Shown one piece after another: positions 21,001 to 27,000 of a stretch of 46,690 nt of DNA. This stretch comes from a virus (lineage: Duplodnaviria > Heunggongvirae > Uroviricota > Caudoviricetes), in the IMG/VR virus record IMGVR_UViG_2718218402_000006; one strand, given 5' to 3'. Positions within the stretch are counted from its first letter, which is position 1. Every line of letters begins with the position of its first letter. The position numbers are program-made.

Positions 21001-24000
21001 GCTTTTTGTTATCCCACAGCAGACGCATCTTTCCTTTTTCCCACTTCTCCACAAGCTCTTCCGCGACCAGTTGCTGCGCCTCTGTCTGCGAAAAAATCTC
21101 CGGATCATCAGGAAAACGGATGGCATACGACGTGGCTTCATCCACAGGCGTGGGATCGGCTTTCATACGGGCATAGAGAATTTCTTTTGCGGTGTCCGTC
21201 CCCACTTCACACAGATACACGCCCCGCTGATTGCGGGTTTTTGGCATGGTGATCACCGGCTTGCCATAGACAGATGCGCCTTTTACCGGCAGCACCCGGA
21301 AAACACCGTGTTTTTTTGACCTCTGATAAACGATTTCGCCATCGATCCCCCCGATGTCCCAGCAGACACGGGAAATGGTCATTTCGGTTCCGTCTGCATG
21401 GCGGTATTTTTTGTTGATCGCCGCATCCACACGTAACAGCGTCTCTTCCTCATCGGGACGCCCCATAATGATGATTTTATCCACCAGAAAGGCTTCCTCT
21501 CCCGGAGCCCATCCCCAGACATACATCTCAAAACGGTTTCGCTGCGAGTCAATGCCCGCCGTCAGATAAACCACCCGGGCAGGCACCGCCGCCGTGTAAC
21601 GCACAACCTTATCCATCAGCACCTGGTGATCGAGTTTTTCGCCCACGGCCTCTTCCCAGGTCTCGCCCAGCGTGGTGTTCACAAAGGTTTTCAGGCCGTT
21701 GGGATCTTTCAGTGCATCCAGCCAGTCATAGACAATCTGTACCCAGGTGGTGAACGGACTGTACGCCGTCCAGATATGGAAAGTGATGGAGCGCGGCGGC
21801 GGAATTTCATCACCCCGGGCGCTGAAAAACATCAGGCCGTCACGGGTCCACATGCCCGTGTTTTCACAGATCCACCGCCCGTTACTCTGGTCAAGCTCAG
21901 ACTGATGGATCACACAGCCATGATGCTCACAAAGGTAGAAAACACTTTCTGGCTTATTCTTCTCCCACTTAAGACCGAAAGGCGAGGCATCATCGCCAAA
22001 TTTCAGATACTGCTCCTCCCCACAGTGCGGACAGGGCACATAAAAACGCATGAAGTGTGCCGACTCGTTAGCCGCTTTTTCGATCTGGCAGGTGCCTTTG
22101 ATTTTAGGCGTCGAGCCGCGAATGGATTTTGGCCATACAGAGCCCTCAATACGTTTATCCCCCAGCAGGGTTGGCGAACCCTCTTTTTCAACATCCGGTT
22201 CGAACGAGGAAAGCTCGTCATAACAGACCACGTCCACGGATTTTTCACGGTAGTTTTTGGCGGCAGCGCCGCCCAGGCACCAGAAACCGACGCCCGATGA
22301 AAAGCGTTTCAGCGTGAGAGTATTGTCACGATGTTTACGACCCAGCCATGGGGAAAGGTCTTTCAGGCATGGCACGTTCCGAATCGTCGCCTCCACGTGA
22401 GACTTCATAAAATCTTCAGCGGCAGAATCCGTGGGCTGAAAAAGCAGACTGTTTCGGGATTTATGCTCAATAAAATACCCGACCACCCCCAGCAACATCT
22501 TTGTATAGCCAACACGGGCAGATTTAATCAGGTTAACCGTGCGAACCTGGTCGTTACCCATACAGTTCATAATGGCGATCTGGAATGGCAGCGTTTTCCA
22601 TTCGCCCTCACCGTATGAAGATTCTTTAGGCAGATAATAATTTTGATCAGCCCATTCAACTGCCGTCATTGGTACAACCCTGACCAGAGGCTGCAGCGCA
22701 ACCGAAACGGCAGCCATCATATTATTCAGTTGTTGCTCTGATATATTCATCGAGTAAATCCGGTAATTTATCCCCTGCCCGCGCACACTGATTTGCCCCC
22801 TTAGCAATAAGGGTTTTCAGATGGTCAAGATGGCGCGGTGTTAAATCAGGAAACTGTCGCTGCATGGATAAAGGGATGGAATCAAGCGTACTGGATAACG
22901 CCATTGCCAGCTTACTGAGGGCAAAAATACAGAACCCGGTGTCAATAAGTTTTCCTTTTGACACCTCATTTTTTAACTGCTGTGTAACAGCCTGTTCTGC
23001 TGTCAGTTCCCATCTGGCAATAAGCAATTTCTCCTCATAGTCGTCTTCGCTATCGCCATCAGGCACATCGTTTTTACTTCTCCTCAGATACGATATGTAA
23101 AAATCGCGCCAGGCATCCAGATCCAGTTGCCCTCGCTTATTCGATATCGGGGCACCCGGCAATTTCTGCAATCTGCGAAGCTGGCGATCGGTCAGACTTA
23201 AATGCCTGGCAACTTCAGTCTGCGTAGCCACTCCTCACCTCGCAAAAACTCTCACCTCACAATCACAACAAAACCGGTCATGTCCGGTTTACATGTCTGT
23301 TTTTTGTTCATGTCCGGTTCACAGAAGACCTGTTTTTATATTTTTCATATAGTTAACTTGAAGAGAAACCGGACATGGATCCCGGAAAATTTTCATAAAT
23401 AGCGAAAACCCGCGAGGTCGCCGCCCCGTAACCTGTCGGATCGCCGGAAAGGACCCACGAAAATGATAATAATTATCATCTACATGAGGTTTATCACGAC
23501 ATGTGTGTACGCCATCAAACCACGAGAAATAATCAATTATTACGCAGGTATCGTATTAATTGATCTGCATCAAATTAGCGTAAAAGCAACTTCAGATAAT
23601 ACAAATCAGCAACACTGAATACGGGGCAACATTATGTCATCAAAGAACAGAACCCGCAGAACAACAACCCGCAACATCCGATTTCCAAACCAGATAATTG
23701 AACAAATTAACATCGCTCTTGACCTGAAAGGTTCAGGTAATTTTTCAGCGTGGGTTATTGAAGCCTGCAGAAGAAGATTAATTAATGAAAAATATTCTCA
23801 ATTTGTACCCAACAAAGACAAACACGACCAGAGCACCTGTTCAGACAGGTTTACTTAAACGACTTATATATGACACAAAAAGCGACCACTAAAGTCGCTT
23901 TTTCTTATGGTAACAGGCAATAACGCTCTCAGATATTTTTTAGCATTTTTTTGACCGCGCGTTTCCGGACGTATTCTGTTCTCCTGTCCCTTTATATCGT

Positions 24001-27000
24001 CGGAATACCCGCCGCTCTTCAAATCCCATTCCCAACTCAGAATGTAGTCTGTTGACCGCTTGTTTTATTTCGGTCAGGTTCACCGGTGAAACCGGAGTCC
24101 GGCGCGCCTTACGCAAACACTCTGCTCGTTTCTGTGCCGCCACTTTTCTTTTCTGGTCATCACTTAGCTGTACCATCACTTTTGCCCATCGTTCAGCTGC
24201 TCTCCGGTACAGTCCTTTTTTCTCCAGACATTCTGCCACGTGATCATGTAGCATAAGTGACCTCCGATTATCTACAGACTGCCATCCTGAATTTACCTTC
24301 CCTTAATGAAATAACAATAAAAAACAAACCACGCAAAAACAATAAAACAACACACAAAAAAAACTAAATAATAAACAAAAATAATCACCTTATTTTATTA
24401 TTTTTTGAGGGAGCAATTACTGAACAAAAAACGCTGACTATATACTCAAAACCAAACAACTATTCTGCCAATCAGGTATCATGGCAACACACGGAATTAC
24501 CGTGTTTTTGCCTTCTCTGCCCATACAATACGGGCATATACTTCATTCTCTATTGTAATATTTCTATCCATGTGCCCCACTCCATTTACCTGTAAATAAT
24601 ATTCAAAATATTTATCACAGAAATCGTTTTTGGCCATGAACTGAGCACACTATAAAGACCGGAACTGACTCTTTGTTAAATTACCTTAACGTTACCAGTA
24701 ACACCTTCATAACAAAACATCACGGTATACACTGGGTACGGATATATTCCTGTGCTCCTTCCAGTTGCTTCTGCATTGCCATCAGCCGTTCTCTGAGGAT
24801 GAAATAATCCCGTTCAGCGGTGTCTGCCAGTCGGGGGCCGGTTGCATTATCCACGCCGGAGGTGCCGGTGGCTTCACGCACGGTACCGGAGCAGGTGGCG
24901 TTGATCCGCAGGCGCTTACGACCAGCGGCAACATCAGCACGCAGAGTTTCATTTTCAGCTCTCGCATCGGCTAATTCCCTCGAGTATCTGGCATCAAGTG
25001 CAGCGACATCACGCTGGCGTACCTGCATATCAGTAATTGTCACGTTCGCCAGCTTCAGCTCACTGGCTTTTTTATCGCGTTGCGCTTTGTAGGTAATGGC
25101 GTTATCGCGGTAATGATTCAGCCCCAGACTAAGCACACCACAGGCTACCAGCAGGACAATAATCACCACACACAGAACACGGTTCATATCCCCCTCACCC
25201 CACCAGCCATGACAAAGTTAAGACGCGCCAGGCAGTGGAAAAGCAAATAGCAACCAGCATTAGTGAAAATGAAATGCCGACGATTACACAGAGGATCTTC
25301 GCCAGCGTTATGAGCTTGTCTGACATGCTTAATCCTCTTCACGATTTCAACGCAATGACCAGTTTTGCCAGCCCATACAGCATCGGAGACACAGCAATAC
25401 CGACCGCCACCCACTTAATAGCAAAAGCCAGCGCTCTGCTGACGTCATCAGTTACAGGCGCTTTCAGTTCAAGGCCGTTTTTCATAGTCAATCTCAACAG
25501 AATTCGTTTATACTTTCCCATGTTCTCCCTTGCCTTACTCAAGGTCAGAAACACAAAACCCCGTTTGCGGCCAACAAACGGGGTTTTACTTTTATTCACT
25601 TAGTTTTTGCCAGTTCGCAGGATTTCGTGTTATCCGCCAGTGTGAGCAAACCGCATTTTTCAGCAAAATATTCTGCTTATCTGTCAATTCCCCAGCACGC
25701 CAGCGCGCTCTCCTGGTCACGCCGTGAAACCTGACCGTAGCAGTTGTTTGAGCGAATACGGCAGTCTCTGCCACCGTCCTTAATCCACCAGCGAATCGCC
25801 TCACACGCTCTCCTGCGATCACCTGCATTAATTCGTCTGTAAAACGTCGACGGGAAACACTTACCGGGACCAATGTTGTACGGACAGAATGACGCGATCC
25901 CCGCTTTCTGGGGTTCGGTCAGCGGTACTTTAATATTGCGCTCCACCCACTCCAGCGCCTTATCACGTTCAATGGCGTTAACCTGGTCGCATTTTTCCTT
26001 CGACAACTTCATGCCCGGAACGACAGGTTTACCATCCACCAGGATGGCACCGCGGCAGATGGTCCAGATACCCGCACCATCACGGTATGCCGTGGTGTGG
26101 TTACCTTCTTTTTCGTCAAGAAACTGGTCGAGGATTTCAGGCGCAGACGCCCCTGCACCAATCAGCGCCAGAACGGCAGCCGACAGGCCGTATCTGATTT
26201 TTGCGTTCATGGATATTTATCAGGGTTTATCGATTTCAAATCCCTGGATATGTTAAGTCTTCAGGCCAGCGGTGGAGTCTTCAGAGAACCAGTAATTATT
26301 CCCGGTAGTTTTCCTCTGTAGGTTATCAACACATCCTGCGCCTCTAAAATTACGGGGCGCTTTTCCGGCAACGGACCATCCCCTTCACATAACCCGGCAG
26401 CAACATCCATGAAAAACTGCTTCGCCTGCTTTTTCGCCTCAGCTTCGTAAAACTCCAGCGTGGCACCTTCAGTACGGTCAAGACTAATCGCCACATCTGG
26501 CAACAACAGTGACGGATACCCACCAATTTCCAGTGCCACAGTAACAGTAATCTTATCCGGGTAATTATTTATCCCTTTAACACCCAGTTCGTATTTTTTC
26601 TTCATCGCTTTACTCCCCCCGCGCCGCCTTACGACGGTCCTCTCTGATTTTGAAATACAGGTTAGTCAGATACGTCAGCAGGCCAAACAGCAGACTCCCC
26701 AGCACACCGATTGCCACCCACTGGGACGGAGAGACTTTGTCCAGCAGCTGCAGTAACCAGTATCCCGTCCCCACCGCTGACGTGGTGTATGACACACCTG
26801 TTGTGATTTTTTCCATCTGATGTATGTCTCCGTCACCGCCGACAGAAAATGAAAGTAAAGGAAAACAAAAAGCCGCCAGTGTCGCCCACTGACGGCCAAC
26901 GCCGGGAGCCGTGATTATGGCATTCAGGCTCTGCTAAAAATGCCAGATAACATTCCGGCTCCCCCCCCTGATTCAGGTTATAAATGACACAATATCTTGA

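What the first reader, a model, noticed from the sequence alone, without database searches (positions are those of the whole stretch)
23940..24400. PerC/Pch-like virulence regulator beside cos, preceded by an unusual A/C-rich low-complexity tract
The 104-aa ORF carries PerC-family signatures and a strong RBS, and lies between Rz and cos where lambda, as recalled, carries bor. Pch-type regulators in EHEC prophages activate the LEE locus. Upstream (24300-24390) is a ~90-bp tract composed almost entirely of A and C (aacaataaaaaacaaacc...), a likely curved or H-NS-bound promoter region.
Basis: partly seen in the sequence, partly recalled or inferred. Interest (0 to 1): 0.55.

Follow-up and report, generated by a model that had tools for sequence, protein, structure and literature searches.

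The report
pchA virulence regulator and its promoter
This is an exact copy of pchA, the well-studied prophage gene that switches on the attaching-and-effacing (LEE) virulence island of enterohaemorrhagic E. coli, and the odd A/C-rich stretch next to it is the gene's own promoter, so the finding is correct but already known.

Summary
The 104-aa ORF at 23940-24254 (- strand) hits Pfam PerC (PF06069) at E=3.8e-44. It is 100% identical in protein and DNA to pchA (ECs_1091) of E. coli O157:H7 Sakai and to EDL933_RS06260, including about 400 bp upstream. It lies between Rz and cosN, in the slot where lambda carries bor, but on the opposite strand to bor.

The A/C-rich tract (24300-24390) is real. 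It is the most strand-skewed and the lowest-GC 100 bp of the window. Published Cappable-seq data for the identical EDL933 sequence place the main transcription start 53 nt upstream of the ATG, at window 24307. The tract is therefore promoter DNA (-1 to -83), not leader RNA. It contains TTGTTT-17-TATTGT and a T-rich upstream part.

Across 83 pch loci the tract is the variable hotspot of an otherwise almost invariant unit, yet the two hexamers are conserved. H-NS binding is plausible from composition but I found no data for it, and predicted curvature is only moderate.

The same prophage carries DicF, the sRNA reported to unlock pchA translation.

Verdict: already known, low interest. The only mildly new point is the hypervariable promoter tract.

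The parts
23940..24254 (-). pchA coding sequence (104 aa, PerC family, PchABC group 1)
   Evidence: ORF. Pfam PF06069 E=3.8e-44. 104/104 aa and 315/315 nt identical to Sakai pchA ECs_1091 and to EDL933_RS06260.
24260..24265 (-). Shine-Dalgarno GGAGGT, 5 nt upstream of the ATG
   Evidence: Read directly. Predicted mostly paired in the mRNA (P unpaired about 0.3), in line with the published anti-SD model, but not distinguishable from codon-order shuffles (18/100).
24255..24307 (-). 53-nt 5' UTR. The main transcription start is the A at 24307; minor starts at 24292 and 24282.
   Evidence: EDL933 Cappable-seq Table S5 of PMC10469882 lists gTSS 1271063 in 8 of 8 conditions, 1271048 in 1 and 1271038 in 2, for CDS 1270696-1271010. 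The sequence is identical to the window from -190 to +20. No distal TSS for this gene appears in the part of the distal-TSS sheet that covers this region.
24314..24319 (-). -10 hexamer TATTGT (positions -12 to -7 from the TSS)
   Evidence: Position follows from the mapped TSS. Almost invariant in 53 distinct pch upstream sequences; TATTAT or CATTAT in more distant homologues.
24337..24342 (-). -35 hexamer TTGTTT, 17-nt spacer
   Evidence: Inferred from the TSS position. Conserved in pchA, pchB and pchC, while the spacer GCGTGGTTTG varies.
24300..24390 (.). A/C-rich tract on the + strand (T/G-rich on the pch sense strand). It comprises the core promoter, a T-rich UP-like region (T8 run at -49 to -56) and further upstream DNA to -83.
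   Evidence: Composition. Weak 21-25-bp periodicity of about 3 copies. Variability hotspot of the locus.
23877..23905 (-). Terminator hairpin (AAAAAGCGAC..GTCGCTTTTT), bidirectional and shared with the convergent ylcI/ynfO-like gene
   Evidence: 11-bp stem with a U-run in the MFE fold of the transcript. Identical in pchA, pchB and pchC. It was not picked up by the simple consensus scan.
42105..42156 (+). DicF sRNA gene in the same prophage, a trans-acting partner according to the literature
   Evidence: Rfam RF00039, 76.7 bits, E=2.6e-15. DicF is reported to activate pchA translation (PMC7769764, PMC7873438, PMC9438474).

Best explanation
The locus is pchA, a self-contained 'moron' gene unit inserted between the lysis cassette and cos of a lambdoid prophage. 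It has its own sigma-70-type promoter inside the A/C-rich tract: -35 TTGTTT, a 17-nt spacer, -10 TATTGT and the TSS at 24307. The promoter is preceded by T-rich DNA that probably acts as an UP-like and/or regulator-binding region. The transcript is a roughly 430-nt monocistronic mRNA with a 53-nt leader that ends at a bidirectional hairpin terminator (23877-23905). The product, PchA, is a small basic PerC-family protein. In EHEC it binds the LEE1 regulatory region, lowers H-NS occupancy there and switches on ler, and through ler the whole type III secretion island. Shown here: gene identity, position, composition, conservation pattern and, by transfer from an identical sequence, the TSS. Taken from the literature: LEE activation, activation of pchA by LrhA, DicF-dependent unmasking of the SD, and SOS induction. 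Inferred: the hexamer assignment, the UP-like role of the T-runs, and read-through from the late operon, since pch is co-directional with Rz and no terminator was found between them.
For: Pfam PerC E=3.8e-44. 100% protein and DNA identity to Sakai pchA, including the upstream region. The exact protein is on more than 1000 contigs and UniRef names it 'PchABC family'. The CDS is found in 672 of 5426 complete E. coli genomes, median 3 copies, at 99% identity or more in 686 of 687 records. The Cappable-seq TSS lies 53 nt upstream of the ATG in all 8 conditions for the identical EDL933 allele, and no distal TSS is listed. The -10 and -35 positions are conserved islands within an otherwise variable tract. 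A terminator hairpin appears in the fold. Literature: Pch activates LEE1 and reduces H-NS binding (PMC4764244); LrhA activates pchA and pchB (PMC4456613; PMC13012123); group 1 pch genes are induced by the SOS response (PMC6265319); DicF acts on an anti-SD element (PMC7769764).
Against: The core promoter is a poor consensus match (7 of 12) and was not found by the consensus scan. The TSS comes from another strain and from a multi-copy gene family, so some reads could be mis-assigned among pchA, pchB and pchC. The window contains no LEE, and its closest complete genomes are 4.7-5.0 Mb strains of unknown LEE status, so the regulatory target in this host is not verified. I could not read the primary papers on the pchA promoter (Honda 2009) or on DicF (Melson and Kendall 2019).
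Confidence: 0.9

Rival explanations
1. The tract is chiefly an H-NS nucleation site or intrinsically curved silencer that keeps pchA off until it is counter-silenced. This is the first reader's reading, and it does not exclude the tract also being the promoter.
For: It is the lowest-GC 100 bp of the prophage at 18%. Predicted bends at the 98th-99.6th percentile lie in and just upstream of the tract (24338, 24403), and the strongest bend of the window is at the 3' end of the gene (23943). H-NS generally coats AT-rich horizontally acquired DNA in EHEC (PMC4764244).
Against: The TSS was detected in all eight conditions tested, including LB, which is not silenced behaviour. There is no match within 2 mismatches to the TCGATAAATT high-affinity motif inside the tract. 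The A-tracts are not phased at 10.5 bp. I found no ChIP evidence for this promoter. The curvature parameters were recalled from memory.
Confidence: 0.35
2. The tract is transcribed as a long U/G-rich 5' leader from an upstream promoter (TTGCCA-17-AATAGT, 24487-24459) and works at the RNA level, for example through Hfq or sRNA binding.
For: The consensus scan finds that upstream promoter-like site at 9 of 12 matches. pchA is known to be controlled post-transcriptionally.
Against: Cappable-seq lists only starts at -53, -38 and -28 for this gene and no distal start. The scan found 2 promoter-like sites in the region against 3.5 expected by chance.
Confidence: 0.05
3. The tract is functionally neutral low-complexity DNA, such as a slippage-prone relic of the moron insertion or a degenerate tandem duplication. 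Its variability would then reflect lack of constraint.
For: It is the most variable segment of the locus: minor-allele fraction 0.07-0.125 against 0.001-0.003 in the CDS, with 31 variants in 83 sequences, T-run length changes and a 42-bp deletion in L063. TRF detects a weak repeat of about 3 copies with a 21-25-bp period.
Against: The -10 hexamer with its preceding T-run, and the -35 hexamer, are conserved within it at the correct distance from a mapped TSS. T-richness and AT-richness persist in homologues at 77-91% protein identity.
Confidence: 0.1

Closest known systems
pchA (ECs_1091) of E. coli O157:H7 Sakai prophage Sp4, and EDL933_RS06260
   Same: Protein 104/104. CDS and about 400 bp of upstream DNA, including the whole tract, are identical; there are 2 mismatches in about 880-900 nt, both near Rz. 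The neighbours are the same: Rz/Rz1 upstream and a ylcI/ynfO-like gene downstream.
   Different: The rest of the prophage is not Sp4. In Sp4 the pchA-lysis block is inverted next to IS629. The window has an uninterrupted Rz-pch-ylcI-cos-Nu1 order and a head module resembling Sp14, the pchC phage.
pchB (ECs_2182, Sp11) and pchC (ECs_2737, Sp14)
   Same: Same slot, same orientation, near-identical CDS and the same terminator. The TSS-proximal -10 and -35 hexamers are conserved.
   Different: Their tracts differ from the window's by many substitutions and 1-nt indels. pchB is the most divergent, and the changes are concentrated between -160 and -70 from the ATG. The pchB leader has AAACGGAGGTT in place of AATCGGAGGTC.
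PerC of the EPEC pEAF plasmid (founder of Pfam PF06069)
   Same: Same protein family and the same target (the LEE1 promoter) according to the literature (PMC4456613, PMC4764244).
   Different: perC is the third gene of the plasmid perABC operon, so it is not a prophage moron with its own promoter. I did not compare sequences here.
Lambda bor, a moron in the Rz-cos slot
   Same: Same genomic slot directly after Rz. Both are lysogen-expressed accessory or virulence genes that are not needed for phage growth.
   Different: Unrelated protein: a Bor lipoprotein (PF06291). It is on the strand opposite to Rz. Lambda also carries a DUF1398 gene there, which the window lacks.

Membership tests
PerC family (Pfam PF06069) | Full-length match to the family HMM above the gathering threshold | tested here: met
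   149.3 bits against a cut-off of 22.6, E=3.8e-44, profile positions 1-89 of 90. There is no NCBIfam model hit, but RefSeq annotates identical copies as 'PerC family transcriptional regulator'.
PchABC (group 1 Pch) of EHEC | 104-aa protein essentially identical to Sakai PchA, PchB or PchC | tested here: met
   104/104 identical to PchA. UniRef names the exact sequence 'PchABC family'.
PchABC (group 1 Pch) of EHEC | Encoded on a lambdoid prophage between the lysis genes and cos/terminase | tested here: met
   Rz at 24720-25187, cosN at 23415-23426, Nu1 at 22722-23231. The arrangement is the same in Sp11 and Sp14.
PchABC (group 1 Pch) of EHEC | Activates the LEE1/ler promoter and type III secretion | not testable with these tools
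   Reported for the identical protein (Iyoda and Watanabe 2004, cited in PMC4456613; PMC4764244). The window contains no LEE and the host genome is unknown.
Phage 'moron' (autonomous accessory gene unit) | Own promoter active in the lysogen | tested here: met
   Cappable-seq TSS in 8 of 8 non-inducing conditions for the identical EDL933 sequence. This is transferred evidence, not measured on this strain.
Phage 'moron' (autonomous accessory gene unit) | Own terminator downstream | tested here: met
   11-bp hairpin plus a U-run at 23877-23905 in the fold. Prediction only.
H-NS-silenced or curved promoter | AT-rich region clearly below the genome average | tested here: met
   18% GC over 100 bp, the lowest in the window.
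H-NS-silenced or curved promoter | Intrinsic curvature (phased A-tracts) | tested here: inconclusive
   Wedge model: 22-24 degrees per 30 bp inside the tract (97th-98th percentile) and 27.6 degrees at 24403 (99.6th), against 41 degrees for an ideal phased A-tract control. The parameters were recalled from memory.
H-NS-silenced or curved promoter | H-NS occupancy, or derepression in an hns mutant | not testable with these tools
   No data for the pchA promoter in the papers and supplements I could reach.

The most novel reading that the evidence does not exclude
The T/G-rich tract may be a hypermutable promoter cassette. T-run indels change the -35/-10 spacer (17 to 16 nt in L018, L048 and L046) and the phasing of the upstream T8 run, and substitutions cluster in the spacer and the UP region. 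The near-identical pch paralogues within one genome, and alleles across strains, would then deliver different doses of the LEE master activator. That would be an evolvable tuning knob, and it could underlie the reported differential regulation of pchA and pchB.
Probability: 0.2. Interest if true: 0.4.

Novelty: already known. Interest (0 to 1): 0.12.

Why it matters
pchA is one of the master switches of EHEC and EPEC attaching-and-effacing virulence, so recognising it flags this prophage as a virulence-regulatory element. That fact is textbook and RefSeq already annotates the gene. The small addition from this work is an anatomical reading of the promoter. The compositional oddity is the core promoter plus upstream region, it is the only fast-evolving part of an otherwise frozen unit, and the activating sRNA gene dicF travels on the same prophage.

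Tried and rejected
1. DicF-pchA pairing. The best duplex energy (-36.8 kcal/mol) was matched or beaten by 17 of 200 shuffled DicF sequences, so I could not reproduce the published interaction site.
2. SD masking. The SD is predicted mostly paired, but no more than in codon-order shuffles (18/100).
3. AlphaFold2 on the single sequence gave mean pLDDT 51 (four helices predicted), which is too poor for a fold search. No PDB relative was found by sequence. I ran no further search on a gene that was already identified.
4. The primary papers (Honda 2009; Melson and Kendall 2019) are not held, so the LrhA site and the published anti-SD coordinates could not be checked.
5. H-NS ChIP data for the pchA promoter were not found.
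6. The genome-contig scan gave only two extra homologues, from E. albertii and an Escherichia sp..
7. I looked for the pchB and pchC TSS rows in the Cappable-seq table. Part 18 turned out to be the distal-TSS sheet, which was still useful because it has no entry for the pchA gene.
8. The HnrS sRNA paper was checked as a possible occupant of the same slot. HnrS lies on other prophages (Sp9, Sp10, Sp12).
9. Rejected: a long U-rich leader RNA, and a 46-aa gene upstream (see rival explanations and noticed in passing).
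Full report
**Observation.** The region reads as described. A 104-aa ORF runs from 24254 to 23940 on the - strand. It has GGAGGT five bases ahead of its ATG. Positions 24300-24390 on the + strand are A58, C19, T12, G2. The best 60-mer in that stretch is 92% A+C, against a window mean of 52% (sd 7%), which makes it the most skewed stretch in 46.7 kb. It is also the lowest-GC 100 bp of the window, at 18%.

**Identity of the gene.**
- The protein matches Pfam PerC (PF06069) end to end: E=3.8e-44, 149 bits against a cut-off of 22.6.
- I fetched the three pch loci of O157:H7 Sakai. The window protein is 104/104 identical to PchA (ECs_1091).
- The DNA is identical over the CDS, the terminator and roughly 400 bp upstream. 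The only 2 differences in 901 nt lie next to Rz.
- The same holds for EDL933_RS06260.
- The exact protein occurs on more than 1000 contigs, and UniRef names it 'PchABC family'.
- The CDS is present in 672 of 5426 complete E. coli genomes, with a median of 3 copies, and the best copy is at least 99% identical in 686 of 687 records.

This is therefore pchA itself, not merely a PerC-like gene.

**Context.**
- The window is essentially one lambdoid prophage on the - strand, running from tail fibre genes to the integrase.
- Around the finding the order is Rz/Rz1 (24720-25187), an unannotated 46-aa ORF, pchA, a convergent YlcI/YnfO (DUF3950) gene (23634-23858, + strand), an exact lambda cosN at 23415-23426, then Nu1 and TerL.
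- In lambda the gene directly after Rz is bor (Pfam Lambda_Bor). It is followed by a DUF1398 gene and the same DUF3950 gene before cos.
The difference is that bor is antisense to the late operon, whereas pchA is co-directional with it.
- No terminator-like site was found on the - strand between Rz and pchA. Late-operon read-through on induction is therefore plausible, and it fits the reported SOS induction of group 1 pch genes (PMC6265319).

**What the tract is.**
- Table S5 of a Cappable-seq study of EDL933 (PMC10469882) lists three gene-specific starts for EDL933_RS06260 (CDS 1270696-1271010, - strand). They are 1271063 in all eight conditions, 1271048 in one condition and 1271038 in two.
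- EDL933 and the window are identical from -190 to +20, so the main start maps to the A at window 24307, 53 nt before the ATG.
- The distal-TSS sheet has no entry for this gene in the relevant interval.
- The tract is therefore promoter DNA from -1 to -83 and is not transcribed.
- Counting back from the start gives TATTGT at -12 to -7 (24314-24319), TTGTTT at -35 to -30 (24337-24342) with a 17-nt spacer, and a T8 run at -49 to -56 where an UP element would sit.
- This core promoter matches only 7 of 12 consensus positions, and the strict scan missed it.

**Comparative evidence.**
- I aligned pchA, pchB and pchC, then 83 pch loci (53 distinct sequences) taken from IMG/VR and the genomes.
- The CDS is almost frozen: minor-allele fraction 0.000-0.003, with 7 variable columns out of 315.
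- The far upstream flank is quiet, at 0.01-0.03.
- The stretch from -160 to -70 relative to the ATG is the hotspot, at 0.07-0.125. It shows 31 variants, T-run length changes and a 42-bp deletion.
- Inside that hotspot, the -10 hexamer with its preceding T-run is invariant and the -35 hexamer is nearly so.
- In homologues at 91% and 77% protein identity (E. albertii and an Escherichia sp.) the upstream DNA stays AT-rich and T-biased, with CATTAT or TATTAT at the -10 position. The extreme T/G purity is lost.
- TRF sees a weak repeat of about 3 copies with a 21-25-bp period. TTTATT(A/G)TT recurs at -119, -90 and -65 from the ATG. The tract may therefore be a degenerate triplication of a -10-like unit.

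**Curvature and H-NS.**
- A wedge-model calculation gives 22-24 degrees per 30 bp inside the tract (97th-98th percentile of the window) and 27.6 degrees at 24403 (99.6th percentile). The window maximum, 35.5 degrees, is at 23943, the 3' end of pchA. An ideal phased A-tract control gives 41 degrees. The Bolshoy-Trifonov parameters were recalled from memory.
- No site within 2 mismatches of the H-NS motif TCGATAAATT lies in the tract.
- I found no ChIP data for this promoter.
- H-NS binding is plausible from composition but remains untested. Detection of the TSS in every condition argues against tight silencing.

**Transcript and translation.**
- The predicted mRNA runs from 24307 to a hairpin with a U-run at 23877-23905, which would also terminate the convergent gene.
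- Reviews of Melson and Kendall 2019 state that the pchA SD is sequestered by an anti-SD element in the coding region. They also state that the sRNA DicF frees it under low oxygen (PMC7769764; PMC7873438; PMC9438474).
- In my folds the SD is mostly paired, with candidate partners at AAGUG motifs at +74, +90 and +110. This was not significantly different from shuffles.
- DicF-mRNA duplex energies were not better than shuffled controls.
- Rfam finds a DicF gene at 42105-42156 in this same prophage.

**Mechanism of the protein (from the literature).**
- PchA binds the LEE1 regulatory region and reduces H-NS/StpA occupancy there. It is needed for full LEE expression (PMC4764244; PMC4456613).
- LrhA activates pchA and pchB. 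Butyrate acting through Lrp and LeuO, and NtrC, also feed in.
- No solved structure is related by sequence, and a single-sequence AlphaFold model was unusable.

**Verdict.** The feature is already known and already annotated. The only mildly new element is that the compositional oddity coincides with the mapped promoter and is the one fast-evolving part of the unit. I give a functional 'tuning knob' reading about 0.2 probability.

Noticed in passing
window 42105-42156 (+): A DicF sRNA gene (Rfam RF00039, 76.7 bits) sits in the early-left region of the same prophage that carries pchA, the mRNA DicF is reported to activate. Regulator and target therefore travel together.
   Followed up: partly
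window 20924-22750 (-), insertion near 20981: The large terminase gene has a 1-nt insertion relative to Sakai Sp14 TerL. It gives 608 instead of 642 aa, with the last 18 residues out of frame. The prophage may be packaging-defective, or this is a sequencing error.
   Followed up: partly
window 24497-24637 (-): A 46-aa ORF lies between Rz and pchA, with no Pfam or NCBIfam hit, and it is unannotated in Sakai, EDL933 and O26. The pchC-linked copy differs by a cluster of non-synonymous changes, so it is probably not a gene. A hairpin (ACACGG-AATT-CCGTGT) spans its stop codon and reads as terminator-like on the + strand.
   Followed up: partly
window 24283-24289 (-), in the pchA 5' UTR: The leader contains CAGGAUG, which matches the core of the CsrA binding consensus as I recall it, plus a second GGA within the SD. 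This suggests possible CsrA control. I did not check it against the literature.
   Followed up: no
window 23943 and 24403: The strongest predicted DNA bend in the whole window is at the 3' end of pchA (23943, 35.5 degrees per 30 bp), and another strong bend lies just upstream of the tract (24403). The gene is thus bracketed by predicted bends (parameters from memory).
   Followed up: no
window 34847-34996 (-) and 29106-29278 (-): Rfam gathering-score hits to the sok antitoxin RNA (hok/sok module) and to the sRNA STnc100 elsewhere in the prophage.
   Followed up: no
whole window; closest genomes H51-H54: No complete E. coli genome holds this prophage intact. The best match covers 91% of window 24000-46690 (the half queried) at 99.5% identity, in 4.87-5.0 Mb strains from humans and a dog. 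Copies 99.9% identical over the pchA-containing 1.1-kb segment (window 23600-24720) also occur in 4.7-5.1 Mb strains from dog, giant panda, pig, seawater and raw milk. Whether those hosts carry LEE was not determined.
   Followed up: no
L002 (Sakai Sp4) 42131-46376: In Sakai Sp4 the pchA-Rz-lysozyme-holin block is inverted relative to the other late genes and abuts IS629. The window shows the uninterrupted arrangement.
   Followed up: no
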